Counted from the stretch's first letter, positions 43,125 through 55,209 are shown. The stretch is DNA of 64,000 nucleotides from Candidatus Aenigmatarchaeota archaeon (GCA_018920255.1 JAHLMR010000001.1:1058-65057), one strand, 5' to 3'. Made by a program: numbers and translations. Notes: a model not told the origin generated them from the sequence alone.

Positions 43125-44213
43125 ATGGCAGTAAAAGCTATAGATGCGAAGAAACAAGGTTCTGCAGATAATTCTGTTGATGAAGAATTAAGAAGACTTT
43201 TAGAAGCAAAAAAAGCAGTTATAAAAGTTGTTGGTATTGGTGGTGCAGGAAATAATACTGTGTCAAGAATGATGCAAGTAGGAATAGTTGGAACAGAAAT
43301 AATTGCAATAAATACTGATGCACAAGATTTACTTTATACTGATGCAGATACAAAAATTTTAATAGGAAAGGAATTAACAAGAGGACTTGGAGCAGGAGCA
43401 GATCCCCATATTGGAATGGAAGCAGCAAAGGAATCAAAGGATGAAATTAAAGATGCACTTCGTGGAGCAGATATGGTTTTTATAACATGCGGACTTGGTG
43501 GAGGAACAGGAACTGGAGGGGCACCAATAGTTGCTGATGTTGCTAAAAAATTAGGAGCTCTTACAGTAGCTGTTGTAACTCTTCCATTTACAATGGAAGG
43601 AAATCAAAGATATGATAATGCTAGATACGGATTAGAACAATTAGAGGGAGTTGTAGATACATTAATAGTAATTCCAAATGATAAATTGTTAGAAATTGTA
43701 CCTGATGTAAGTATAATGACAGCATTTAAAGTAGCAGATGAAATTTTAGTAAATTCTGTTAAAGGAATAGCCGAATTGGTAACAAAACCAGGTCTTGTTA
43801 ACTTAGATTTTGCAGATATAAGAGCAATTATGGGAAGTGGTGGAATAGCAATGATTGGAATGGGCGAAAGTGACACAGAAAACAGAGCAATAGAAGCAGT
43901 AGAAAAAGCTATTAACAACCCATTACTTGATGTTGATATTGAAGGAGCAACAGGTGCTTTAATAAATGTAAGTGGTGGTCCAGATATAACTATGAGAGAA
44001 TGTCAAGAGATTGTTGAGGCAATAAGAACAAAACTTTCACCAGATGCTAAAATTATTTGGGGTGCACAAATAAATAAAGAAATGGGAGATACAATAAGAG
44101 CAATGATGATAGTAACTGGTGTAAAAAGTAATCAAATTTTTGGACAAACAAAGACTACAACAAAAGAAAGAACAAAGGAAATTGAAAAAGTTCTTGGAAT
44201 AGAATTTGTATAA
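43125..44213 (+). CDS. ftsZ: Cell division GTPase FtsZ
   Basis: GIGGAGNN, the tubulin signature GGGTGTG, and the T7 loop NLDFAD. Confidence 0.95.
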
Positions 44214-44240
44214 AAGCTGTGTTAAAACACGGCTTTTTAA
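44214..44240 (+). terminator. Hairpin followed by a T-tract after ftsZ
   Basis: AGCTGTGTTaaAACACGGCT followed by TTTTTAAA. Archaeal terminators are mainly oligo-T. Confidence 0.4.
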
Positions 44241-44295
44241 ATATTTATTTTAATATTTAAATATTCTTCTATTTTATTAATTTCAAGGTGAAAAT

Positions 44296-44526
44296 ATGGA
44301 GAATATACAAAAAATACAAAATCAAGAAAAAAGAAAATTTTTACAGGAAATAAAAATAGTTAAAAAAATTAAAGAAAAAATTGAAATGTATAAAAGAACA
44401 ATAGAAATAGCAAAAAAACCAGATAAAGAAGAATTTATTTATTCAGCAAAAGTAACTGTTATTGGAATAGGAATAATAGGAATAATAGGTTTTATATTAT
44501 TTGTATTATATAATTTATTTATGTGA
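44296..44526 (+). CDS. secE: Protein translocase subunit SecE/Sec61-gamma
   Basis: 76-aa protein with a single C-terminal TM segment (VIGIGIIGIIGFILFVLY) in the conserved position upstream of nusG. Confidence 0.55.
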   Translation: MENIQKIQNQEKRKFLQEIKIVKKIKEKIEMYKRTIEIAKKPDKEEFIYSAKVTVIGIGIIGIIGFILFVLYNLFM

Positions 44527-44987
44527 TAAATATGGCAATATATACTGTAAGAACAACTGCTGGAAGAGAAAATATTGTAATAAATGCAATATTAAATAGA
44601 ATTAAAACTTCAGGATTAGATATCAAAGCAATGTTTCATCCATCTGAAATTAAGGGTTACATTTTTATAGAAGGAACTTATGATGTAATAGAAAAAGCAA
44701 TAACAGGTGTACCACATATTCGAGGATTAATAAAAAAAGAAATACCAATTTCTGAGATTAAAAAATTTATGGAAATAAAGAAAACAGAAATAAAATTAAA
44801 TCGTGGAGATATTATAGAAGTTATAAGTGGACCATTTAAGGGAGAAAAAGGAAAAGTAACAAGATTTGATGAAGCTAAAAGAGAAGTAACAATAGAACTT
44901 CTTGAAGCTGTTGTGCCAATTCCAATTACTGTATCTACAGATGTCGTTAAAATTATAGAACATGCTGAAAAGAAAGCAGGTGAATAA
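44523..44987 (+). CDS. nusG: Transcription elongation factor Spt5/NusG
   Basis: NGN domain (IYTVRTTAGREN) and KOW motif (GDIIEVISGPFKGEKGKV). Confidence 0.8.
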   Translation: MINMAIYTVRTTAGRENIVINAILNRIKTSGLDIKAMFHPSEIKGYIFIEGTYDVIEKAITGVPHIRGLIKKEIPISEIKKFMEIKKTEIKLNRGDIIEVISGPFKGEKGKVTRFDEAKREVTIELLEAVVPIPITVSTDVVKIIEHAEKKAGE

Positions 44988-44988
44988 T

Positions 44989-45474
44989 ATGGGAAAGCAA
45001 AGTCTAAAATTACTTGTTGAAGGTGGAAAAGCAACACCAGCACCACCATTAGGTCCAGCATTATCTCAAGCAAAATTAAACGTTGGACAGGTTATAGCTA
45101 AAATAAATGAGAAAACAAAATCATTTGCAGGAATGCAAGTTCCAGTAGAAGTTATATATGACCCTTCAGATAAAACCTTTGATATAAAGGTAGGTACACC
45201 ACCTGTTAGTGCTTTAATTAAAAAAGAATTAAAAAAAGAAAAGCTTGCAAAAACACCATGGAAAGAGCCACCTGTAGCTGATTTAACTATTAAACAAGCA
45301 TTAGAAATAGCAAAAGCAAAGCGCGATAAGCTAAATACTGATAATGTTAAGAAAGCAGTAAAACAAATCATAGCATCATGTGTAAGTCTTGGAGTTACAG
45401 TTGAAGGAAAAAATCCCAAAGATGTTTTAAAGGAAATAGATGAAGGAAAATATGATAAAGAATTAAATTGGTAG
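44989..45474 (+). CDS. rpl11: 50S ribosomal protein L11
   Basis: Start trimmed to MGKQSLKLLVEGGKATPAPPLGPALSQ, the conserved L11 N-terminus. Confidence 0.9.
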   Translation: MGKQSLKLLVEGGKATPAPPLGPALSQAKLNVGQVIAKINEKTKSFAGMQVPVEVIYDPSDKTFDIKVGTPPVSALIKKELKKEKLAKTPWKEPPVADLTIKQALEIAKAKRDKLNTDNVKKAVKQIIASCVSLGVTVEGKNPKDVLKEIDEGKYDKELNW

Positions 45475-45558
45475 TTAACTAAAGAAATCTTTAAATATTT
45501 TTATAATTATCCTATTTATAACTGCCTTGAGCAGTAGCATTGTGCGAAGGAGTTATTT

Positions 45559-46203
45559 ATGGAAATTAAAAATTTAGAAAAGAGTTTAGAAGAACTTAAA
45601 AAAACATCAATTAAAAGAAATTTTGTTCAATCTATTGATTTAATAATTTCTTTAAAAAATTTAGATTTAAAAAAACCAGAAAACAGAATAAAAGCTGAAA
45701 TATCTATTCCAGTACAATTTAAACCAAATAAAATAGGAATTTTTGCTGATACATTAATACCAAAAGTTAAAGAGCTTGGAGATTCTGTGATCTTAATAAG
45801 AAAAGAAGAAATAGAAAGTTATGGAAAAAATAAAAAACTTGCAAAAAAACTTGCAAAGCAGTGTAATTCATTTATCGCTGAGCCAAATCTTATGGCAAGT
45901 ATAGGAAAAAATTTAGGTCCTATTTTAGCACCAAGAAATAAAATGCCAAAACCTATCCCCCCAAATATAACTGATTTAAAACCAATTGTAGAAAGAGAGA
46001 AATCACTCATTAAAATTTTTGTAAAAGATTCTCCTGTAATTCAATGTTCAGTTGGAAAAGAAAACATGAAAAATGAAGATATAATTCAAAATATAAAAGC
46101 AATAATAGATAATATAGAAGCAATTCTTCCAAACGGAAAAGAAAATATAAAAAATATTTATTTAAAATTAACAATGGGTGGAAAACCAATAAAGTTGATA
46201 TAA
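45559..46203 (+). CDS. rpl1: 50S ribosomal protein L1
   Basis: 214-aa protein in the conserved cluster position, with L1-like blocks (FVQSIDLIISL, IFVKDSPV). Confidence 0.85.
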   Translation: MEIKNLEKSLEELKKTSIKRNFVQSIDLIISLKNLDLKKPENRIKAEISIPVQFKPNKIGIFADTLIPKVKELGDSVILIRKEEIESYGKNKKLAKKLAKQCNSFIAEPNLMASIGKNLGPILAPRNKMPKPIPPNITDLKPIVEREKSLIKIFVKDSPVIQCSVGKENMKNEDIIQNIKAIIDNIEAILPNGKENIKNIYLKLTMGGKPIKLI

Positions 46204-47055
46204 ATGTTAAAAGAAAATTATAAACCAAAAGTAACAGAAGAAAAGAAAAAAATAGTATCTGAATTAGTCGATTTGATAAATAAAAATAAAGTTTTAGGAA
46301 TTGTTGATCTATATAAACTTCCATCTGCTCAATATCAAAAAATAAAAAATAGTTTAAAGGGAAAAGCTTCTATTAAAGTAGTAAAAAAATCATTATTAGA
46401 ACGAGCATTAGAAAACTCAAATAAAAAAGAATTAATAAAATATATTCCGCTTCACCCAGCATTATTAATTTCAAATGAAAATCCATTCAAATTATATTTA
46501 TTTATAGAAAAAAATAAATCATCCGCACCAGCAAGAACTGGAGATATTGCAACAAATGATATTATAGTTCCAGCAGGTCCAACAGATATTCCACCAGGAC
46601 CAGCTATTTCAACATTACAAAAAGTAAAAATACCTACAAAAGTAGAAGCAGGAAAAATATCTATAATTAAAGATACTATTGTTTGTAAAGCAGGAGAAAA
46701 AATATCACAAGACCTTGTTTCAGCTTTAAACTTATTAAAACTTGAACCAATGCAAATAGGATTGAATGTAAAAGCAATCTATGAAGACGGGATACTTTAT
46801 ACAAAAGAAATACTTTCAGTTGACGAGCAAAAAATAATATCAGATTTTAGTAGTGCAGTATTATCAGCAATTAACTTTTCAGTAAATATATCATGGCCCG
46901 AAAAACAAACAATAAATATTTTACTTACAAAAGCTTATTTAAACGCAAAGAATTTAGGAATAGAAGCTTGTATATTAGAAAAAAATATTATTGAAAGCAT
47001 TTTACAAAAAGCAAATGCAAATGCTTTTGTTATATCAAAAAAATTAAGTTTATGA
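46204..47055 (+). CDS. rplP0: 50S ribosomal protein L10 (acidic protein P0)
   Basis: 283-aa protein in the conserved position between L1 and L12. Archaeal P0 length. Confidence 0.85.
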
Positions 47056-47074
47056 AATAAAAGAAGGTGATAAA

Positions 47075-47374
47075 ATGGAGCTTATATATGCAGCACTTTT
47101 GCTTCATAGTGCAAAAAAAACTATAAATGAAGAAAGTATATCAAAAATACTTTCAGCAGCTGGTATAGAAACAGATGCAGCAAAAATAAAAGCATTAGTA
47201 GCAGCATTAGAAGGAGTAAATATTGATGAAATTATTTCAAAAGCTGCAATGCCAGTAGTTCCAGCAGCACCAGTTGCAGCAACACAATCTGAAAAGAAAG
47301 AAGAAGTAAAAGAAGAATCAAAAGAAAAGAAAGCAGAAGAAGCTGCAGCAGGTTTAAGCGCACTCTTTGGATGA
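47075..47374 (+). CDS. rpl12: 50S ribosomal protein L12 (P1 stalk protein)
   Basis: N-terminal [15 protein letters not shown]..., an Ala/Pro hinge, and an acidic C-terminus ending GLSALFG. Confidence 0.85.
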
Positions 47375-47406
47375 AAGCATATTTTATAAAATTTTATTTA
47401 TTTTTA

Positions 47407-47889
47407 TTAGTAGAAAGAACATTCATCTATATCTTCAAAATAAAGACTACAAATCAATTCAAATAATTCATTTTCATTAATTTTTCCTTGAATAAACTTT
47501 TCTGTTTTACCTCTTAATAAAATATATGGTAACCCTAAAGATTCATTAAAATCATTTCTATCAGTTATCATTTTTGTTTCATTTAAATACTTATTTATTT
47601 CTATTTTTTCTATTATCATTTTTCTCCCAACATTTTCAAAAACATTTTCTATTTTTTTAAAATCTTCTAAACAACAATTTTCAGAATAATAAAATCTTAA
47701 AATAACAAAATTACTTCTAAGATATGTTGCTTCTTCTGATTCGGATAATGGTTTATCATAAATTAATTGTAAGCTTTTTTCTTTTGGAAAAATAAAAGAA
47801 ATAGCATACGCTATTGTACTCCCAATAAATGCTAATAATATGAAAACAGCAAAAATTTTATTTCTTGTTTCCTTTCGCATTTCTTTCAC
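47407..47889 (-). CDS. Hypothetical membrane-anchored protein
   Basis: N-terminal TM segment (IFAVFILLAFIGSTIAYAISFIF). The remainder is unassigned. Its 5' end overlaps trxB. Confidence 0.3.
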   Translation of the reverse strand: MKEMRKETRNKIFAVFILLAFIGSTIAYAISFIFPKEKSLQLIYDKPLSESEEATYLRSNFVILRFYYSENCCLEDFKKIENVFENVGRKMIIEKIEINKYLNETKMITDRNDFNESLGLPYILLRGKTEKFIQGKINENELFELICSLYFEDIDECSFY

Positions 47890-48793
47890 CTTGTAATTTT
47901 AAATATTGAGAAGCAGAGATTGCAGCAATTGCTCCATCTGCAGCTGCTGTAACTATTTGCTTTAGCGGTGATGATCTAACATCTCCAGCAGCATAAATTC
48001 CAGGAATATTTGTTTCACATTTTTCATTTACTTTTATATATCCTCTTTCATCTAATTCTAATTTTATTTTTTTAGCCAATGAATTTAAAGGAATTTCGCC
48101 AATAGCTATAAATACAGCAGAAGTTTTAATTTCCTTTCCATCATCTAAAATTACTTTTTCTACAAATTTATTTCCTTTTATTTCTTTAATTGACTTATTA
48201 AAAATAAATTTTACATTATTTTTTTCTGCTGATTCTAAAAGATTTGAAAAAGTTTTCATTTCAGATTTATCCTTATAATATATTAAAGTCGTTTTACATC
48301 CTATATTAGATAAATATAATGCATATGTTAATGCAGTATTCCCACCACCAAATACAATTACATCTTTTCCTTTAAAAAATGCACCATCACATGTTGCACA
48401 ATAACTCACACCTTTTCCTAAAAATTCTTCTTCGCCAGGAATATTAGCTTTTCTATGTTTTGTGCCTGTTGCAATTATTATTGTTTTTCCTTTATATTTT
48501 TTTCCAGAAGAAGTTATAACATCAAAATTATTTTTATTTATTGAAATATCTATAACTGTTTCTTGAGTTATTTTTCCACCTAAACTTTCTAAATGTTTTT
48601 TCATTTTTTCTAATAATTCTTGTCCTGAAATTAAAGGAAAACCAGGAAAATTATTTATATTATGAGCTAACGTTAGAAGAGAGGGTTGTTCAATACTTTC
48701 AAAAATAATTGTTTTTAAACTAGCATTAATAGCATAAATTCCTGCAGTTATTCCTGCAGGTCCACTACCAATTATTATTAAATCATAAATCAT
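47858..48793 (-). CDS. trxB: Thioredoxin-disulfide reductase
   Basis: FAD motif GSGPAGITAG, redox-active CATCDG and an NAD(P) Rossmann motif GGGNTA. Confidence 0.85.
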   Translation of the reverse strand: MIYDLIIIGSGPAGITAGIYAINASLKTIIFESIEQPSLLTLAHNINNFPGFPLISGQELLEKMKKHLESLGGKITQETVIDISINKNNFDVITSSGKKYKGKTIIIATGTKHRKANIPGEEEFLGKGVSYCATCDGAFFKGKDVIVFGGGNTALTYALYLSNIGCKTTLIYYKDKSEMKTFSNLLESAEKNNVKFIFNKSIKEIKGNKFVEKVILDDGKEIKTSAVFIAIGEIPLNSLAKKIKLELDERGYIKVNEKCETNIPGIYAAGDVRSSPLKQIVTAAADGAIAAISASQYLKLQGERNAKGNKK

Positions 48794-48795
48794 AA

Positions 48796-49662
48796 TTACA
48801 CCATTATTTTTTTAGCTTCTTGTATTAACTCAATAATTTTTCTTTTATTAATACCAGTTTTAGATTCTATTTCTTCGGGTTTAAATTTAAATAAATCTTT
48901 TAATAACATAAATCTTGCGTTTGAAAACGCATTTAAAGTTTCTTTATCTAAATTTCTTAACAAGGTTATTGGATATAAGTTTCTTTTTTCTATCATAACT
49001 TCAAGCCCATATCCAGCAGGAAATCTCCAACCAAGAAGTTTCATTGACTTACAATTTGCATATTGAATAGCATCTAAAGAAAATTTAGTATTACATACAA
49101 GCCATGGTTTATCAAATTTCTCACATTTTCCAGCCTTCCAACCGTCTATTAAATCAAGAAACCTTGCGTATGTATATAACACTTCCTTTAAACCTGTATA
49201 TATTCCTGAAATATTATGATATTTTAACTCAATCATATATCTTATAGGAGAAGGCCTTTCAAAAATTCTTGATTTAGGAAATTCTTCAGCTATTATATCT
49301 ATTTCATGATTTACACATCCACCAGAAACAATTTGTCTTAGTCTTGTTTTATAATTATATTCATTAAGAATTTCAGCAAAATAATTTTCAAAAGTATAAC
49401 CAGCAGGTCCTAATGCCATAATAGCATATTTTAAGTTATATTTTGCTGCGGCTTCAGGCTTTTTTTCTTCTAATATTTTTGTTGCTATTTCAAGTATTTC
49501 CCTTGTGCTTATTCCATCATAAAGTCTTGATTTAATTTCACGAAGTACTAAATTTGCAAGTTCTTTTGATGCTCCAGAACGTATTATAGTTTTATATATT
49601 TTATTTTCGTTAAATAATTCCCTATCTCCAGAAGCTTTTGTTACATAAATTTCTTTTTTCAT
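48796..49662 (-). CDS. ATP-cone domain protein fused to a PD-(D/E)xK (Mrr-like) restriction-endonuclease-fold domain
   Basis: N-terminal ATP-cone (IYVTKASGDRELFNENKIYKTIIRSGAS...). The Mrr_cat-like block is GYTFENYFAEILNEYNYK...EIDIIAEEF...YMIELKYH, arranged as D...ExK. It is oriented divergently from nrdD. Confidence 0.55.
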   Translation of the reverse strand: MKKEIYVTKASGDRELFNENKIYKTIIRSGASKELANLVLREIKSRLYDGISTREILEIATKILEEKKPEAAAKYNLKYAIMALGPAGYTFENYFAEILNEYNYKTRLRQIVSGGCVNHEIDIIAEEFPKSRIFERPSPIRYMIELKYHNISGIYTGLKEVLYTYARFLDLIDGWKAGKCEKFDKPWLVCNTKFSLDAIQYANCKSMKLLGWRFPAGYGLEVMIEKRNLYPITLLRNLDKETLNAFSNARFMLLKDLFKFKPEEIESKTGINKRKIIELIQEAKKIMV

Positions 49663-49843
49663 AAAAAATTTATTGATTATCTATTTAATAAAGTTTTAGC
49701 TTTGAAATATTTCAATCTATATTTTTGAGTATACAAATTTATTTAAATATAAAAAAAAATTAATATTTAATTTTACAATATTTCAAAACTCATTTTATTA
49801 GTATCAGAGACTATCAGTGCCGAGAAAAAATAATAACAGGTGA

Positions 49844-52183
49844 TTGTTTATGAAAAAAGAAATATTAAATCAAAATTTAGTTGAAAATTTTTATTATGAA
49901 GATAAAAATAAAATTAATTTCTGGATTGCAAGAATGGAAAAATATAGCAAAGATGCTGTTATTCAATCATGTTTAAATTCTGGAGCAACAGAAGAAGTTG
50001 CAAAAAAAGTTGCTGAACAAGTAGATAAATTTGTTGATAGTAGAATGAAAATGTCTGAAGTTCGCCCACTTATTTTTACATTTTTAGAGAAATATGATCC
50101 AATTTCTGCAAAAAAATTTAAAGGCCATGAATTATATGTTAGGACATCAAAATTTACATATGAAAAATTTGATAGAGAAAAAATTAAGCAATCTTTATTA
50201 AGAGAAACAGAAATATCTGAAGACGCAGCAGAAATTATAACTAATGAAGTTGAAAATTTTATAAGAAATGCAAAATATGAAATAGTTTCATCATCTCTTA
50301 TTAGAGAATTAGTTAACTCTAGACTTCTCGTTCATGGGCTTGAAAAAATTAGAGCAGAATATACAAGAATAGGAATGCCTGTTTGGGATGTAACAACTCT
50401 TATTAATCAAGGTTCAAATGAAAACGCTAACCTTCAATATAACCCAGAAACAATTCATAAACTTATTGCTGATAGCATACTAAAAGAATATACTCTTATA
50501 AAATTACTTCCAAAACACATAGCAGATTCTCATTTAAGAGGAGAAATTCATATTCATGATTTAGATTATTTTGCATTAAGACCGTTTTGCTTTAGTCATG
50601 ATATGAGATTTTTCTTAAAAAGAGGTTATATTTCAGATGGTCAGGGAATTCATACAGCAACAGCAGGACCAGCAAAACATCCAGAAGTAGCAGTTTTACA
50701 TGCAGCTAAATTTCTTGCAAGTTCTCAAACTAATTGTGCAGGAGGACAAGGTTATAATTGGTTTAACGTTTTATTATCACCATACCTACAAGGTCTTTCT
50801 TATGAAAGAATAAAACAATTAGCACAAATGTTTTTATTTGAAATGTCTCAGATGTATGTTGCAAGAGGCGGGCAAACAGTATTTTCAAGTATAGATATAG
50901 AACCAGAAGTTCCTAGTGTTTTAAAAAATGTTCCAGCAGTCCTTCCTGGAGGAATAGTTAAAGAAAATGTTACTTATGAAAATTTTCAAGATGAAACAAA
51001 TAAATTCTTTAAAGCAATAATTGAAGTTTATACTCAGGGAGATGCAAAGAAAAAACCATTTAACTTCCCAAAATGTGAAGTAAAGGTTTCTAAAGATATT
51101 ATAGAAAAATATAAAGAAGAAATGTTTGCTGTTGCAGAATTAGCAGCAAAGTTCGGAACTCCATATTTTTTTGTACAACAAGATTATATGCCAGAGTATA
51201 GTTGTTATCAATGTTGTAGCTATTTAATGGATTTAAGCAACCAGAATTCTGAATCAGATTTATATAATGGTACAGTTCGTGGCGGAGCACTACAAGTTGC
51301 AACTTTAAATCTTCCAAGAATTGCTTATGAGTCAAGAGGAGATGATACTAAATTATTTGAATTAATTAGAGAAAGATTAGAAATTATAAGAGAACTAATG
51401 TTTATAAAATATCATATTATTAAAAAAAGATTAAAACAAGGAATTTTACCATTTCTTTCTCAACCAGTTAATGAAAAGGGAGATACATATTTAAATCCAG
51501 ATAAAATGAGTTTTGAAATAGGAATGATAGGTTTAAATGAAATGCTTAAAGCACATCTTGGATATGAACTTCATGAGAGTAAAGATGCATGGACATTTGG
51601 ACTTAGAGTTATAAAAGAAATGTGTGATATTGCAAAGGAGTTTAATAAAACAAATGAAATAGGAGGACATTTTGCTATATCAAGAACTCCTGCAGAAAGT
51701 TGTTCGCACAGATTAGCTAAAATAGATTTTAAAGAATTTAATGGAAGAGCAATAGTACAAGGTGATAAAAATTCCGGGGCAATCTATTATACAAATAGTA
51801 CTCATATAAGACCATCTGCTGAAATATCTATTTGGGATAGGATAAAAATTGAATCATCATTTCATCCACTTTTAGTTGGGGGTGCTATGCTTCATATTTG
51901 GTTAGGTGAGGCATTTCCAAATCCACAAGCAATTTTTGAATTAAATAAAAAAATTATAAATAATACCCTTACTGCATATTATGCATATACAAAAGATTTA
52001 ACTGTTTGTAGAAAATGTAATTTTGTATATGGACAGGCAACAAAATCTTGTATAAATTGCGGTTCTCAAGAAGTTGATATTTATTCAAGAATAACAGGTT
52101 ATTATCAAAATCTAGGAAGTTGGAATGAAGGAAAAAAAGCAGAGTTTTTTGAAAGAAAAAGATATGTAATAAAGGAGGTATAA
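49844..52183 (+). CDS. nrdD: Anaerobic ribonucleoside-triphosphate reductase (class III)
   Basis: N-terminal ATP-cone, large barrel, C-terminal zinc ribbon CRKCN...CINCG and glycyl-radical motif SRITGYY. Confidence 0.9.
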   Translation: MFMKKEILNQNLVENFYYEDKNKINFWIARMEKYSKDAVIQSCLNSGATEEVAKKVAEQVDKFVDSRMKMSEVRPLIFTFLEKYDPISAKKFKGHELYVRTSKFTYEKFDREKIKQSLLRETEISEDAAEIITNEVENFIRNAKYEIVSSSLIRELVNSRLLVHGLEKIRAEYTRIGMPVWDVTTLINQGSNENANLQYNPETIHKLIADSILKEYTLIKLLPKHIADSHLRGEIHIHDLDYFALRPFCFSHDMRFFLKRGYISDGQGIHTATAGPAKHPEVAVLHAAKFLASSQTNCAGGQGYNWFNVLLSPYLQGLSYERIKQLAQMFLFEMSQMYVARGGQTVFSSIDIEPEVPSVLKNVPAVLPGGIVKENVTYENFQDETNKFFKAIIEVYTQGDAKKKPFNFPKCEVKVSKDIIEKYKEEMFAVAELAAKFGTPYFFVQQDYMPEYSCYQCCSYLMDLSNQNSESDLYNGTVRGGALQVATLNLPRIAYESRGDDTKLFELIRERLEIIRELMFIKYHIIKKRLKQGILPFLSQPVNEKGDTYLNPDKMSFEIGMIGLNEMLKAHLGYELHESKDAWTFGLRVIKEMCDIAKEFNKTNEIGGHFAISRTPAESCSHRLAKIDFKEFNGRAIVQGDKNSGAIYYTNSTHIRPSAEISIWDRIKIESSFHPLLVGGAMLHIWLGEAFPNPQAIFELNKKIINNTLTAYYAYTKDLTVCRKCNFVYGQATKSCINCGSQEVDIYSRITGYYQNLGSWNEGKKAEFFERKRYVIKEV

Positions 52184-52185
52184 AT

Positions 52186-52362
52186 ATGTCAGATTTAGAA
52201 TTTTATAAAAACGGTTTTGAAAATAGAAAAAGAACTTGTATATACTGTGGTGAAAAATTTTGTACAGGAACACGTATAACTGGAACATTAGATGGTTCAG
52301 ATCCAGAATATCCTTTTGTTGAAAGAAAAAGTTGTGGATGGTGCAAAGAACTTGAAGATTGA
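52186..52362 (+). CDS. 58-aa mini-protein homologous to the NrdD C-terminal zinc-ribbon/glycyl-radical module
   Basis: Sequence MSDLEFYKNGFENRKRTCIYCGEKFCTGTRITGTLDGSDPEYPFVERKSCGWCKELED. A strong AGGAGGT RBS lies 6 nt upstream, and the start is 2 nt after the nrdD stop. Confidence 0.4.
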   Translation: MSDLEFYKNGFENRKRTCIYCGEKFCTGTRITGTLDGSDPEYPFVERKSCGWCKELED

Positions 52363-52603
52363 AGTTTATTATACGAAAAACTGTCCAAAATGTCCTGCAG
52401 CAAAACAAATTTGTAAAGAATTAGCAAAAGAATTTAATTTAGAGTATTCAGAAATAGATATAGAAGAAAATTTAATAGATGCTCTTCAAAAAGGAATAGC
52501 ATCAGCACCAACAGTTTTAATTGATGGAAAAATTGTATCAAGATCTTCAGTACCAGAAAAAGAAAAATTAATAAAGATTATCAAGGGAACTTCAAATGGA
52601 TGA
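52292..52603 (+). CDS. Glutaredoxin/NrdH-like redoxin
   Basis: CPKCP active site in KIEVYYTKNCPKCPAAK. The real start is probably internal (TTG 52352, LKIEVYY), because the upstream part overlaps the 58-aa ORF in another frame. Confidence 0.55.
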   Translation: MVQIQNILLLKEKVVDGAKNLKIEVYYTKNCPKCPAAKQICKELAKEFNLEYSEIDIEENLIDALQKGIASAPTVLIDGKIVSRSSVPEKEKLIKIIKGTSNG

Positions 52604-53330
52604 AATAATTAAACTAGGGGGTATTTTAGATTTTACAACAGTTGATTGGCCAGGAAAAATAGCATCTATTGTTTTTCTTTATGGTTGTAATTTTAAATGT
52701 CCATATTGTTTTAATTCTGATTTAGTTATTGGAAATAATTTTAAGGAAATTGAAATTTCAAAAATAGTTGCTTTATTAAAATCAAATAAAGATTTTGTAG
52801 ATTCTGTTGTTATTTGTGGAGGTGAGCCAACAATTCATGGAGAAAAGTTAGTTAAGTTATGCTCTTTATTAAAAGAATCAGGATTTAAAATAAAATTAGA
52901 TACAAACGGAAGTAATCCAGAATTAGTTGAAAAATTAATTAAAAACAAACTTATAGATTTTGTCGCATTAGATATAAAATCAGACTTTCAAGAAAAAAAT
53001 TATGAAAGGGCTTCTGGTGGATTTACTGACATGCAAAAAATTAAAAATACACTTAATATTCTTATTAATTCAAATATAGAATATGAATGTAGAATACCAG
53101 TAATACCAAATTTAAATCAACATTTGATTAAAAACATAGCAAAGGAAATAACTCAAGCAAAAACTGTAGTTTTAGAACAATATATTTCTTCTGATAAAAC
53201 AATAGATAAAAATTTTAAAATTATAAATTCACCAAGTAGAGAAGAGTTAATAAATTTAGCAAAATTCTTTAAGAATGAAATTGTAAAAATAAGAACTAAA
53301 GAAATGGGAGAAGAAATTTTAACAAGTTAA
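52596..53330 (+). CDS. nrdG: Anaerobic ribonucleotide reductase activating protein (radical SAM)
   Basis: CNFKCPYC cluster motif near the N-terminus and a GGEP SAM-binding motif. Confidence 0.85.
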   Translation: MDEIIKLGGILDFTTVDWPGKIASIVFLYGCNFKCPYCFNSDLVIGNNFKEIEISKIVALLKSNKDFVDSVVICGGEPTIHGEKLVKLCSLLKESGFKIKLDTNGSNPELVEKLIKNKLIDFVALDIKSDFQEKNYERASGGFTDMQKIKNTLNILINSNIEYECRIPVIPNLNQHLIKNIAKEITQAKTVVLEQYISSDKTIDKNFKIINSPSREELINLAKFFKNEIVKIRTKEMGEEILTS

Positions 53331-53651
53331 ATGAAAGATAGCACCAACTTTTTTACCTCTAATTTTATTAAATTCTTGAACCGCTTGAGGTGTTGGCTTA
53401 ATTATTAATTCAATACCAGAAACTTGAGCAGCAACATGCACAGATGGATCTATTTTAACAGCACCAGCAGTTCCATTTCCTATTATAATAATTTCAACAT
53501 TTTCCATTAAAAAATCATCAACATCAAATTTTGTTATTTCATGAGATTTTTCTTTTTCAACAATTTTCCCATCTGGATAAATTTTTATATCTGTAGTAAA
53601 TTTTTTACCTCCTATAATTATTGTACCAAAATAAAAACTATCTATTTTCAT
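53319..53651 (-). CDS. Mth938-like domain protein (DUF498)
   Basis: Pattern ...FGTIIIGGKKF...IIIIGNGTAG...IKPTPQAVQEFN...AIFHLTC. Confidence 0.5.
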   Translation of the reverse strand: MKIDSFYFGTIIIGGKKFTTDIKIYPDGKIVEKEKSHEITKFDVDDFLMENVEIIIIGNGTAGAVKIDPSVHVAAQVSGIELIIKPTPQAVQEFNKIRGKKVGAIFHLTC

Positions 53652-53785
53652 AATTTTTAATGTGTGTTATTAATATTTAAAATTTTAGTAAATCAAGGAT
53701 CTATCATCTGTAACTATTATTATTTCCACATAAAATTCAAAGGAAATTCCAAAAATTTAAATATTTTTAAGTACATTTTATAATT

Positions 53786-53953
53786 ATGAAAAAATTTAAT
53801 TTATTTAGTATCTTGTTCATTCTTCTTTTTTCTTTAAATACCTTTGCTGCATGTTTTTCACCAAGTAATGGAACATTAACTTATGAAAATGAATCATTTT
53901 CTTTTGTTTCGAGAAATGTATCAATAAAAAATTCAATAATTCGATTTAGGTAA
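53786..53953 (+). CDS. Small putative secreted peptide (55 aa)
   Basis: ORF MKKFNLFSILFILLFSLNTFAAC... with a signal-peptide-like N-terminus. Below the ORF-track cutoff. Confidence 0.2.
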   Translation: MKKFNLFSILFILLFSLNTFAACFSPSNGTLTYENESFSFVSRNVSIKNSIIRFR

Positions 53954-53958
53954 TAAAA

Positions 53959-54741
53959 ATGGGAATTTTTGATTTTCTTTTCAAAAAGAAAAAAATTGAC
54001 CCAGAATCAATAAATTATTTTAAATACTTCATTTATGATGATTATTTAATTTTTGACTTATCATTTCTTAATGAAAGAATTTTAAAATGCTATACAGATT
54101 TAATTAAAAAATATACAAAATTAAGTATTTCAAAGGAAAAAATTAAAAATCTAATTTTAGAACATTCTCGCGCAATTTTTCTCGAAAAAGGAAAAATATC
54201 TTTTATTAAATTTAATTTTAGTTACCTTTCTTTTCTTCAATATTTTATAATTCCATTACCAAATGATATAAAATCATTATTTGAATTTATTCAAAATTAT
54301 AAACTCATTCCAATAAATGTTAATTTTACAGGTGTTAATTTCATAGATTTTTTTCGTAGACGTTCATTTGAAGAAGGACCAGAAGAGGGTCCTAATAAAT
54401 TTTTGTTCGTTCCTTTATCTAAAATGAATAAAATATGTACTGGAGGTTTAGATATTGCTAACAATGTTAATAAAATTTTTGATTGTTATTCTGAACTTAT
54501 AATAAATTCAATAAATCTTAAAGACAAGAAACAAAAGAATAATATAAGAAATTTAATAAGTCTTGTTTGTGGAATCTCAACAGACTTTTACTCTAGTTCA
54601 GGAGAACTACTAGCAAAATGCTATTATGATGGTCATGAGAAAGGTCTTGTTTTATATACAAAGTTAAATAAAGAAAAAATCAATGAAATTTTAAGGAAAT
54701 ATAACTTTTCTTTAACAACAAATAAAATATATTTTAGATGA
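53959..54741 (+). CDS. Hypothetical protein
   Basis: 260-aa ORF with no recognisable motif. Confidence 0.3.
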   Translation: MGIFDFLFKKKKIDPESINYFKYFIYDDYLIFDLSFLNERILKCYTDLIKKYTKLSISKEKIKNLILEHSRAIFLEKGKISFIKFNFSYLSFLQYFIIPLPNDIKSLFEFIQNYKLIPINVNFTGVNFIDFFRRRSFEEGPEEGPNKFLFVPLSKMNKICTGGLDIANNVNKIFDCYSELIINSINLKDKKQKNNIRNLISLVCGISTDFYSSSGELLAKCYYDGHEKGLVLYTKLNKEKINEILRKYNFSLTTNKIYFR

Positions 54742-54804
54742 AGCTTCTATAGATAGATTGCACTTTCAATTGTTACTTTAAAAAATAAGCATTAATTATA
54801 AAAA

Positions 54805-54893
54805 TGGTAGCCCCGGTAGGATTCGAACCTACGTCTCAAGGTTTCTTCCAATTGACCAGAGCCTTGCATGCTTGACCGCTACACCACGGGGCT
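54805..54893 (-). tRNA. tRNA-Gln(CTG) with a 13-nt canonical anticodon-loop intron; CCA encoded
   Basis: Minus-strand sequence AGCCCCGTGGTGTAGCGGTCAAGCATGCAAGGCTCTGG[TCAATTGGAAGAA]ACCTTGAGACGTAGGTTCGAATCCTACCGGGGCTACCA. It has an A1-U72 pair, a CAAGG/CCTTG anticodon stem and a GTAGG/CCTAC T stem. Confidence 0.6.
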
Positions 54894-54993
54894 ATGCTAA
54901 TTTATTTTTCTTTAAGCTTTTAAATTTTTTAAAGCATTAATTTTAAATTTTACTAATTTATAATTCTTTTAATTAAAATTAAAGGGTGATTTT

Positions 54994-55209
54994 ATGATAG
55001 AAGAAAAACAATTTATACTTATATTAAATGGAGAAGAATTTATAAGTCCAGATAAATATGTTGTAGACTTTTATGGGAATAGATATATGATTTTTGAAAG
55101 TAAATCTAGAGCATTTAAAATAAAAGTTTATAGAGATGATCTAGAGATAGATATGGTTACAGGAAAATGCAAACTTAAACCAGGAAAAAGGGTTATTCCT
55201 TTAAATTAG
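54994..55209 (+). CDS. Hypothetical small protein
   Basis: 71-aa ORF with a GGGTGA RBS. No motifs. Confidence 0.25.
   Translation: MIEEKQFILILNGEEFISPDKYVVDFYGNRYMIFESKSRAFKIKVYRDDLEIDMVTGKCKLKPGKRVIPLN

What the first reader, a model, noticed from the sequence alone, without database searches (positions are those of the whole stretch)
48796..49662. ATP-cone fused to a PD-(D/E)xK (Mrr-like) domain, divergent from the nrdD-nrdG operon: a possible archaeal NrdR-analogue
The N-terminal ~90 aa form an ATP-cone, the nucleotide-sensing module of RNR and of bacterial NrdR. The C-terminal ~190 aa carry a restriction-endonuclease-fold signature, GYTFENYFAEIL...EIDIIAEEF...YMIELKYH, arranged as D...ExK, in place of NrdR's zinc ribbon. 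The gene is transcribed divergently from class III RNR, with a 180-bp shared intergenic region. Bacterial NrdR represses nrd genes via its ATP-cone, and archaea lack NrdR. Either an ATP-cone/REase-fold DNA-binding regulator of nrdDG or a dNTP-sensing nuclease is therefore plausible.
Basis: partly seen in the sequence, partly recalled or inferred. Interest (0 to 1): 0.55.

Follow-up and report, generated by a model that had tools for sequence, protein, structure and literature searches.

The report
ATP-cone nuclease beside archaeal RNR genes
The gene is real and encodes a widespread but untested archaeal protein that joins a nucleotide-sensing ATP-cone to an intact Mrr-type nuclease and a DNA-binding tail; it most likely is a nuclease controlled by ATP/dATP, not a stand-in for the bacterial repressor NrdR.

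Summary
Window 48796-49662(-) is a 288-aa gene with three domains:
- an ATP-cone (Pfam E 5e-9);
- a PD-(D/E)xK core, 41-44% identical to PDB 1Y88/AF1548 (phmmer E 8e-40);

It lies 181 bp from nrdD-redoxin-nrdG, transcribed divergently. It also heads its own operon with thioredoxin reductase.

The fusion is not new. It is a fixed architecture, with at least 377 clusters (50% identity) at E<=1e-30. It occurs in Archaeoglobi, Hadesarchaea, Nanoarchaeota, Micrarchaeota and Aenigmatarchaeota, and GenBank names it "ATP cone domain-containing protein". AF1548 itself has the cone; the crystallised ORF was truncated.

E92, E120, D122, E145 and K147 are invariant in 64 diverse members, which favours a live nuclease over a pure DNA binder.

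An RNR gene lies in the fetched flank of the gene in 9 of 87 distinct loci, against about 1-3 expected. These cover three RNR types and several orientations, and two loci have a single pur-DUF498-gene-NrdJ operon. All nine come from metagenome or MAG contigs resembling this window's DPANN-type gene order. The Archaeoglobi, Hadesarchaea, Nanoarchaeota and methanogen-like loci sampled have none. One relative has a true NrdR next to the gene.

No conserved operator was found. Function remains untested.

The parts
48796..49662 (-). Gene for the 288-aa ATP-cone / Mrr-type PD-(D/E)xK / AF1548-like_C protein (called ACRE in this report)
   Evidence: ORF. Pfam. PDB 1Y88 E 7.7e-40. 99%-identical GenBank MAG protein.
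49417..49662 (-). ATP-cone domain (residues 1-82; Pfam match 5-75). K9, G12, K21 and K78 are invariant; E15, T53 and Y75 nearly so
   Evidence: The alignment to E. coli NrdA places K9, E15, K21 and T53 on NrdA K9, E15, K21 and T55.
48985..49401 (-). PD-(D/E)xK nuclease core (residues 88-226). Catalytic codons: E92 49387-49389, E120 49303-49305, D122 49297-49299, E145 49228-49230, K147 49222-49224
48802..48975 (-). AF1548-like_C domain (residues 230-287), helical and helix-hairpin-helix-like
   Evidence: Pfam PF22357 E 1.7e-14. HHH_5 hits 19/64 members, RAD51D_N 6 and RuvA_C 3. Lower model confidence here, pLDDT 52-84.
49663..49849 (.). Shared divergent intergenic region between this gene and nrdD (74% A+T locally). 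Contains a TATA-like TTTATTAAATA on the minus strand (49682-49692), 20-30 nt upstream of this gene's ATG, and a GGTGA at 49838-49842 before the nrdD ATG
   Evidence: Sequence. Promoter elements are inferred by eye and are not statistically supported.
49702..49715 (.). Perfect 14-bp palindrome TTGAAATATTTCAA. A 12/14 copy lies at 49773-49786, 71 bp away. It is a candidate operator only
   Evidence: The window-wide count at <=2 mismatches is 12 against 6.7 expected, which is not significant. The motif is not conserved in relatives.
49844..52183 (+). nrdD, class III ribonucleotide reductase with its own ATP-cone (residues 98-174). The likely true start is the ATG at 49850
   Evidence: TIGR02487 E 4e-157.
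52292..52603 (+). Thioredoxin/glutaredoxin-like redoxin between nrdD and nrdG
   Evidence: Thioredoxin_3 E 3e-13, Glutaredoxin E 1e-6. The same gene sits between nrdD and nrdG in L002.
52596..53330 (+). nrdG, the radical-SAM activase of NrdD
   Evidence: TIGR02495 E 3e-52.
47858..48793 (-). trxB-like thioredoxin reductase. It starts 2 nt after this gene's stop codon, so the two are probably one transcript
   Evidence: The same gene-then-TrxB order occurs in L087 and L089. TrxB lies in the flank of 15 of 87 loci.
47407..47889 (-). 160-aa ORF with an N-terminal hydrophobic segment and no Pfam family. It overlaps the end of trxB and is the conserved third gene of the block (gene cluster c15)
   Evidence: It sits between this gene/TrxB/RNR and alanyl-tRNA synthetase in L007, L014, L040, L052, L063, L067, L087 and L089.
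53319..53651 (-). DUF498 (Mth938-like) gene, the most frequent neighbour of the family. Here the inverted nrdD-redoxin-nrdG block separates it from this gene
   Evidence: DUF498 lies in the flank of 23 of 87 loci, usually directly upstream and co-directional.

Best explanation
The gene encodes a member of the AF1548 family, a three-domain archaeal protein. An N-terminal ATP-cone is followed by an Mrr-type PD-(D/E)xK endonuclease core with an intact metal-binding and catalytic site. A C-terminal helix-hairpin-helix-like domain is of a type that binds the DNA backbone without sequence preference.

The most likely mechanism is a Mg2+-dependent DNA endonuclease whose assembly state, and hence activity, is set by the adenine nucleotide (ATP versus dATP or ADP) bound to the cone. 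ATP-cones switch RNR and NrdR between oligomers in the same way. This would couple a DNA-processing step (repair, fork processing or DNA turnover) to the nucleotide pool.

In this and related DPANN-type lineages the gene lies within or beside dNTP-supply and purine operons. Here it heads a gene-trxB-c15 operon, divergent from nrdD-redoxin-nrdG.

Shown here: domain identities, active-site conservation, family breadth and gene neighbourhoods.

Inferred, not shown: nucleotide binding, nuclease activity, oligomeric switching, the substrate, and any effect on nrd expression.
For: Architecture:
- Pfam ATP-cone, Mrr_cat and AF1548-like_C.
- 1Y88 at E 7.7e-40.
- Model pLDDT 85.9.

Catalytic residues: E92, E120, D122, E145 and K147 are invariant, and H149 is present in 63/64 members at 38-71% identity.

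Cone residues: K9, G12, K21 and K78 are invariant, and E15, T53 and Y75 are at least 90% conserved. They align with NrdA K9, E15, K21 and T55. Archaeoglobi members keep the canonical VRKRDG motif.

C-terminal domain: HHH_5 hits 19/64 members; RAD51D_N and RuvA_C also hit.

Fixed full-length architecture: 1110 representatives at E<=1e-3 and 377 at E<=1e-30, and the 150 best listed are mostly 260-295 aa.

Housekeeping, non-mobile character:
- Neighbours are ribosomal protein genes, tRNA synthetases, pur genes, RNR and TrxB.
- No PADLOC hit and no viral homologue.
- No DNA methyltransferase partner was seen.

Nucleotide-metabolism neighbours:
- RNR in 9 of 87 loci against 0.8-2.7 expected.
- A purE-purC-purB-DUF498-gene-NrdJ operon in L052.
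- Ribose-1,5-bisphosphate isomerase and AMP phosphorylase directly upstream in L048 and L051.
- purB next to the gene in L097.
Against: - No biochemical data exist for any member, and I found no paper on the fusion.
- Active-site conservation shows selection on those residues, not which substrate is cut or that cutting is the physiological output.
- Half the family, including this protein, has K-A-S-G instead of the canonical K-R-D-G in the cone, so nucleotide affinity or specificity may differ.
- Contexts outside the DPANN-type loci are heterogeneous. In Archaeoglobi the upstream neighbours are transporters, which gives no clue to a DNA transaction.
- The RNR-linked loci are not phylogenetically independent.
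Confidence: 0.5

Rival explanations
1. Functional analogue of NrdR. The protein would be a dATP/ATP-sensing transcription regulator that binds the promoters of nrd (and pur/trx) operons through its endonuclease-fold and HhH domains. It would repress or activate them according to the nucleotide pool.
For: - Divergent 181-bp shared promoter region with nrdD-redoxin-nrdG.
- A perfect 14-bp palindrome plus a 12/14 copy 71 bp away in that region.
- RNR genes lie in the flank of the gene in 9 of 87 loci against about 1-3 expected. These fall in five subclades, with three RNR types and varied orientations.
- The gene is operonic with NrdJ in L040 and L052.
- NrdR is rare in archaea (PMC9110341).
Against: - The full catalytic set is invariant in 64/64 members, which a pure DNA binder would not need.
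- The C-terminal domain is of the sequence-nonspecific HhH type.
- A true NrdR with NrdR-box-like palindromes sits right next to this gene in L090.
- The nearest relatives (71% and 59% identity) lack a neighbouring RNR.
- There is no RNR linkage in Archaeoglobi, Hadesarchaea, Nanoarchaeota or the Micrarchaeota-like clade.
- The palindrome is not enriched in the window (12 against 6.7 expected) and is not found near the gene or RNR in any other locus.
Confidence: 0.17
2. The adjacency to nrdDG is inherited gene order only. The protein would be a housekeeping nuclease or DNA-binding protein whose function has nothing to do with RNR or the thioredoxin system. RNR genes would gather next to TrxB and redoxins in a conserved DPANN block (DUF498-gene-[slot]-c15-AlaRS) in which this gene is a bystander.
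For: - The block gene-TrxB-c15-AlaRS recurs without RNR (L087, L089). RNR, TrxB or both occupy the same slot between this gene and c15 in different loci.
- Here nrdD-redoxin-nrdG looks like an inverted insertion between DUF498 and this gene, whereas in L007 the same block lies downstream.
- Lineages outside this gene-order block show no linkage.
Against: - The protein carries the very sensor domain that RNR and NrdR use.
- Independent nucleotide-metabolism neighbours (AMP phosphorylase with ribose-1,5-bisphosphate isomerase; purB) occur in loci that lack that block.
- Proximity survives several rearrangements.
Confidence: 0.2
3. Mrr-like type IV restriction or anti-virus nuclease, switched on by a change in nucleotide pools during infection.
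For: The catalytic domain is closest to Mrr_cat, MspJI and AspBHI. The sensor-plus-nuclease layout resembles Can2/Card1 and NucC effectors.
Against: - No PADLOC match.
- No homologue in IMG/VR.
- No modified-DNA reader domain.
- Neighbourhoods are housekeeping genes, not defence islands.
- Conservation is high, with 45-55% identity between Archaeoglobi and DPANN members. The tree roughly follows lineages, unlike mobile defence genes.
Confidence: 0.06

Closest known systems
AF1548 of Archaeoglobus fulgidus (PDB 1Y88) and the database family with Pfam architecture ATP-cone + Mrr_cat + AF1548-like_C (GenBank 'ATP cone domain-containing protein' / 'restriction endonuclease')
   Different: The crystallised AF1548 chain lacks the cone. 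An assembly-derived protein 99% identical to it is 265 aa and does have the cone (P0121), so the deposited ORF was N-terminally truncated. This window's protein has K-A-S-G where Archaeoglobi have K-R-D-G in the cone, and a 10-12-residue insertion between the second and third core strands.
NrdR, the bacterial (rarely archaeal) repressor of ribonucleotide reductase genes
   Different: It has no Zn-ribbon. The cone is N-terminal rather than C-terminal. The DNA-contacting part is a catalytically intact nuclease plus an HhH-like domain. No conserved paired boxes were found. It coexists with a true NrdR in L090.
Mrr / MspJI / AspBHI (type IV and IIM restriction nucleases)
   Different: It has no modified-DNA-binding domain and no defence context, appears vertically conserved, and has a nucleotide-sensor domain instead.
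CARF/SAVED-nuclease effectors Can2, Card1 and NucC
   Different: The sensor is unrelated (ATP-cone, not CARF/SAVED), the presumed ligand is a housekeeping nucleotide, and there is no CRISPR or CBASS context. This is an analogy only.
Hjc, the archaeal Holliday junction resolvase (the name JGI gives many members)
   Different: Hjc is a ~120-140-aa single-domain protein. This protein does not reach Hjc at E<=0.1. Geoglobus carries a separate true Hjc 2 kb from its family member.

Membership tests
AF1548-like ATP-cone nuclease family (ATP-cone + Mrr_cat + AF1548-like_C) | N-terminal ATP-cone | tested here: met
   PF03477 E 5.4e-9, above the gathering score. The fold matches NrdR and RNR cones.
AF1548-like ATP-cone nuclease family (ATP-cone + Mrr_cat + AF1548-like_C) | PD-(D/E)xK core homologous to 1Y88, with the D...ExK triad | tested here: met
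   phmmer E 7.7e-40. D122, E145 and K147 are invariant.
AF1548-like ATP-cone nuclease family (ATP-cone + Mrr_cat + AF1548-like_C) | C-terminal AF1548-like_C domain, and full-length colinearity with the family (~260-295 aa) | tested here: met
   PF22357 E 1.7e-14. Coverage is 97-100% against most hits, and the best hits are nearly all single-stretch matches.
NrdR | N-terminal four-cysteine Zn-ribbon DNA-binding domain | tested here: not met
   The protein has no Zn_ribbon_NrdR or TIGR00244 hit. Its sequence starts directly with the cone.
NrdR | ATP-cone that senses ATP/dATP | tested here: inconclusive
   The domain is present and its key residues are conserved. Nucleotide binding cannot be tested with these tools.
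NrdR | Paired conserved palindromic boxes upstream of nrd operons | tested here: not met
   There is one perfect 14-bp palindrome plus a 12/14 copy 71 bp away. The motif is not enriched, and it is absent near the gene or RNR in the other loci.
NrdR | Consistent genomic association with RNR genes | tested here: inconclusive
   9 of 87 loci against about 1-3 expected. The association is absent from the closest relatives and from the Archaeoglobi, Hadesarchaea, Nanoarchaeota and methanogen-like loci.
Mrr-type (type IV) restriction endonuclease | Mrr_cat catalytic domain | tested here: met
   E 0.0095 for this protein (below the cut-off), but 64/64 members match at E<=1, with a best E of 3.8e-13.
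Mrr-type (type IV) restriction endonuclease | N-terminal modified-DNA-binding (winged-helix/SRA-like) domain and a defence role | tested here: not met
   The N-terminus is an ATP-cone. There is no PADLOC hit and no viral homologue, and the neighbourhoods are housekeeping genes.
Hjc Holliday junction resolvase | Single-domain ~120-140-aa protein matching PF01870 | tested here: not met
   This protein has no Hjc hit at E<=0.1. It is a 288-aa three-domain protein. A separate Hjc is present in Geoglobus.

The most novel reading that the evidence does not exclude
The AF1548-family protein could be the missing nucleotide-pool regulator of archaea. In this reading it is an ATP/dATP-sensing, endonuclease-fold protein that binds (or nicks) promoter DNA of nrd, trx and pur operons and so controls dNTP supply. 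It would do the job of NrdR with an unrelated DNA-binding module.
Probability: 0.15. Interest if true: 0.75.

Novelty: new member of a known kind. Interest (0 to 1): 0.42.

Why it matters
How archaea control ribonucleotide reductase expression and dNTP pools is largely unknown, because NrdR is rare in archaea. This family is a broadly conserved archaeal protein that joins the canonical dATP/ATP sensor to a live-looking nuclease, and in some lineages it is encoded inside dNTP-supply operons. That makes it a concrete, testable candidate for linking nucleotide pools to DNA transactions.

The work also shows that the only solved structure of the family (1Y88) lacks its regulatory domain, because the ORF was called too short. 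As it stands, though, this window's gene is an ordinary member of an already catalogued, functionally untested family. The specific 'NrdR analogue' idea is only weakly supported.

Tried and rejected
A GTDB-wide census was therefore not possible.

2. Palindrome TTGAAATATTTCAA as an operator:
- It is not enriched in the window (12 against 6.7 expected).
- It is absent upstream of the gene in the 71%-identical relative.
- It is not positioned near the gene or RNR in any other locus.
- It is rejected as evidence, though not excluded as a local site.

3. The upstream divergent gene in L087 was suspected to be NrdD, but tblastn shows it is not.

4. The 21-nt inverted repeat 49649-49669 / 49843-49863 arises only because both divergent genes start with ATGAAAAAAGAAAT (MKKEI). 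It is not a regulatory hairpin.

5. The conserved 18-mer upstream of the class II-like RNR in L007 and L090 is most simply two back-to-back TATA boxes in a 54-64-nt divergent promoter.

6. Rfam on 47300-55200: no riboswitch or leader in the nrdD 5' region.

7. Defence hypothesis: PADLOC and IMG/VR were both negative.

8. Literature searches for the fusion found no characterisation. Aravind, Wolf and Koonin 2000 (the ATP-cone paper) is not in the library, so I could not check whether it lists this architecture.

9. No NrdR or second RNR gene was found in the 64-kb window.

Full report
**1. What is there**

The minus-strand ORF 48796-49662 encodes 288 residues. I call it ACRE below, for ATP-cone restriction-endonuclease-fold protein. 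It is a real gene. A 99%-identical protein is deposited from a Candidatus Aenigmatarchaeota MAG as "ATP cone domain-containing protein", and the word-indexed search found 669 homologues.

Pfam gives three domains:
- ATP-cone, residues 5-75, E 5.4e-9.
- Mrr_cat, residues 88-209, E 0.0095. This is below the cut-off for this protein, but the family matches it 64/64 at E<=1, with a best E of 3.8e-13.
- AF1548-like_C, residues 230-287, E 1.7e-14.

The only solved relative by sequence is 1Y88, "hypothetical protein AF1548", at E 7.7e-40 over residues 93-287.

An AlphaFold2 model built on a 27-sequence alignment has pLDDT 85.9. It shows a cone (1-82), an alpha/beta core (89-226) and a helical tail (231-287).

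**2. The neighbourhood in the window**

ACRE is transcribed divergently from three genes:
- nrdD (49844-52183; TIGR02487 E 4e-157).
- A thioredoxin/glutaredoxin-like gene (52292-52603).
- nrdG (52596-53330; TIGR02495 E 3e-52).

The gap is 181 bp to the first possible start. It is 187 bp to the ATG at 49850, which is preceded by GGTGA.

- ACRE's stop codon is followed after 2 nt by a thioredoxin reductase gene (47858-48793).
- Next comes an overlapping 160-aa ORF with no known family (47407-47889).

So the two divergent operons together encode a class III RNR, its activase, a redoxin and a thioredoxin reductase, plus ACRE and the unknown 160-aa protein.

From established knowledge, not tested here: some class III RNRs use thioredoxin rather than formate as reductant (Wei et al. 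2014, recalled from memory). That would make this a coherent dNTP-synthesis module.

No NrdR and no second RNR gene occur in the 64 kb.

**3. The family**

The fusion is not a peculiarity of this genome.
- An exhaustive phmmer search of representatives at 50% identity found 1110 hits at E<=1e-3 and 377 at E<=1e-30. The 150 best listed are mostly 260-295 aa and matched end to end.
- Named members come from Archaeoglobus, Geoglobus, Ferroglobus, Hadesarchaea, Nanoarchaeota, Micrarchaeota, Aenigmatarchaeota and Methanosarcinales.
- They carry names such as "restriction endonuclease/ATP cone domain", "Holliday junction resolvase" and, once, "NrdR family".

A search with the 1Y88 sequence returned a 265-aa protein, 99% identical to it, that begins with a canonical cone, MLRVRKRDGRLEEF... 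(P0121). The crystallised AF1548 was therefore an N-terminally truncated ORF, and the solved structure lacks the regulatory domain.

A PD-(D/E)xK survey files 1y88 under Mrr_cat/COG1787 (PMC3424549). The GOS paper predicted D, E and K catalytic residues for it (PMC1821046). I found no paper that describes or tests the cone-nuclease fusion.

**4. Is it a nuclease or only a DNA binder?**

I aligned 64 members at 38-71% identity to the query.
- In the nuclease core, the invariant columns include E92, E120, D122, E145 and K147. H149 is present in 63 of 64.
- In the cone, K9, G12, K21 and K78 are invariant, and E15, T53 and Y75 are at least 90% conserved.

A phmmer alignment to E. coli NrdA puts K9, E15, K21 and T53 on NrdA K9, E15, K21 and T55. 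From memory, these are nucleotide-contacting positions of the RNR cone.

Half the family, including this protein, has K-A-S-G where the other half has the canonical K-R-D-G.

The C-terminal domain hits HHH_5 in 19/64 members, and also RAD51D_N and RuvA_C. This is the sequence-nonspecific helix-hairpin-helix class.

Strict conservation of a complete metal-binding and catalytic set, together with a nonspecific DNA-binding tail, argues for an active nuclease rather than a repressor that merely reuses the fold.

**5. Does it travel with RNR genes?**

I collected 97 loci, which reduce to 87 distinct ones with 819 kb of flanking DNA. An RNR catalytic-subunit gene lies in the flank of nine. About 0.8-2.7 would be expected if RNR operons occur once per 300-1000 kb.

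The nine loci:
- **This window:** nrdD divergent, 182 nt away.
- **L001 and L007:** class III genes convergent with ACRE. In L007 nrdG ends 5 nt from ACRE.
- **L040 and L052:** a class II-like RNR starts 23 nt downstream. In L052 the genes purE-purC-purB-DUF498-ACRE-RNR are co-directional with 4-18 nt gaps or overlaps, followed after 106 nt by redoxin-c15.
- **L016 and L063:** the RNR gene is on the opposite strand.
- **L067:** the RNR gene is co-directional.
- **L090:** the order is DUF498-ACRE-nrdR-nrdJ-grx.

The nine fall in about five subclades of a rough neighbour-joining tree. They involve three RNR types. That pattern is more than chance and fits functional coupling.

Three limits apply.

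First, all nine resemble this window's DPANN-type gene order DUF498-ACRE-[slot]-c15-alanyl-tRNA synthetase. The slot holds TrxB, RNR or both. The nearest relatives of the window protein (71% and 59% identity) have TrxB but no RNR.

Second, several groups show no RNR within 8 kb:
- The large Micrarchaeota-like clade.
- Ferroglobus, Geoglobus and Archaeoglobus.
- A Hadesarchaeon, a Nanoarchaeote and a methanogen-like contig.

Third, in L090 a genuine NrdR (Zn ribbon plus cone) sits between ACRE and nrdJ, with NrdR-box-like palindromes in front of it. ACRE and NrdR therefore coexist.

Other neighbours related to nucleotide metabolism do recur:
- purB (L007, L052, L063, L065, L090, L097).
- Ribose-1,5-bisphosphate isomerase plus AMP phosphorylase directly upstream (L048, L051).

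The most constant partner is DUF498, present in 23 of 87 loci. TrxB is present in 15 of 87.

**6. Operator search**

The intergenic region contains a perfect 14-bp palindrome, TTGAAATATTTCAA (49702-49715), and a 12/14 copy 71 bp away.
- In this 26%-GC DNA the window-wide count at <=2 mismatches is 12, against 6.7 expected (3 of 100 shuffles reach 12).
- The motif is absent upstream of ACRE in L087.
- It is not placed near ACRE or RNR genes in any other locus.
- Rfam finds nothing in the nrdD leader.

There is thus no comparative support for a conserved operator.

**7. Other readings**

A defence or restriction role is unlikely:
- No PADLOC match.
- No homologue in IMG/VR.
- No methyltransferase partner, and housekeeping neighbours.
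- Sequence conservation that roughly follows lineages.

The "Holliday junction resolvase" label is not a family assignment. The query does not reach Pfam Hjc, and Geoglobus carries a separate true Hjc 2 kb away.

**8. Verdict**

The protein is a new member of an already catalogued, structurally sampled but functionally untested archaeal family. My best-supported reading is an ATP/dATP-gated Mrr-type endonuclease (0.5).

Two rival readings remain:
- **Bystander (0.2):** the RNR adjacency is only inherited DPANN-type gene order.
- **NrdR analogue (0.17):** ACRE is a nucleotide-sensing transcription regulator of nrd genes. This is open but weakly supported.

Nucleotide binding, cleavage, substrate and any regulatory effect are inferred, not shown.

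Noticed in passing
PDB 1Y88 vs P0121 (locus L094 8001-8798): The crystallised 'hypothetical protein AF1548' is an N-terminally truncated ORF. An assembly-derived protein 99% identical to it is 265 aa and starts with a canonical ATP-cone (MLRVRKRDGRLEEF...). The only solved structure of this family therefore lacks its regulatory domain.
   Followed up: partly
L090 8990-12173 (NCBI GCA_964353775.1, CAYGWB010000002.1): An archaeal MAG carries a genuine NrdR (Zn_ribbon_NrdR plus ATP-cone, 148 aa) directly upstream of a 910-aa class II RNR. NrdR-box-like palindromes (e.g. CACAATAGGTTGTG) lie in the 113-bp region in front of it. A second RNR gene lies 5 kb away.
   Followed up: partly
window 54805-54893 (-): ARAGORN reports a tRNA with an unreadable four-base anticodon (89 nt), and Rfam scores it as a tRNA (55.8 bits). 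It is probably an intron-containing archaeal tRNA.
   Followed up: no
window 49844-50135 (NrdD residues 1-97): NrdD has about 97 residues in front of its recognised ATP-cone (98-174). They look like a second, degenerate cone: the helical part resembles cone helices, and there is a weak NCBIfam hit to the 2-phosphoglycerate kinase N-terminus at residues 34-66.
   Followed up: no
window 47407-47889 (-); also L087 4530-4991, L089 6236-6706, L040 7457-7930: A conserved ~155-aa ORF with an N-terminal hydrophobic segment and no Pfam family always sits between TrxB or RNR and alanyl-tRNA synthetase in DPANN-type loci. It may be a membrane-anchored redox partner.
   Followed up: no
L092 6958-8786, L093 5722-8807, L094 7193-8798: In all three Archaeoglobi the family gene abuts or overlaps the 3' end of a co-directional membrane transport gene (CorA, an amino-acid permease-Usp fusion, and MscS respectively). 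Na+/H+ and Na+/Ca2+ exchangers flank it in L005, L010, L011, L036 and L047. This is unexplained.
   Followed up: no
L005 11448-13583: A thioredoxin-reductase-like gene is interrupted by an intein with a LAGLIDADG homing endonuclease (711 aa product).
   Followed up: no
L087 1996-2742: A 750-bp non-coding stretch lies upstream of the family gene in the 71%-identical relative. It has two ~60-nt GC-rich repeated elements (…AAAAAGCCGCTGCGGCGCAAACGTTGCA… / …AAAAAACCGCGTGCGCCGACGTTGCA…). Rfam finds no match at E<=1.
   Followed up: partly
window 49649-49669 and 49843-49863: A 21-nt, 95%-complementary inverted repeat spans the two divergent start codons. It exists because both genes begin with ATGAAAAAAGAAAT (MKKEI).
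   Followed up: yes
window 43125-47374: The classic archaeal cluster FtsZ, SecE-like, NusG/Spt5, L11, L1, L10 and L12 lies immediately downstream of the ACRE-trxB operon. The same cluster follows alanyl-tRNA synthetase in L014, L022, L052, L063, L065 and L067.
   Followed up: no
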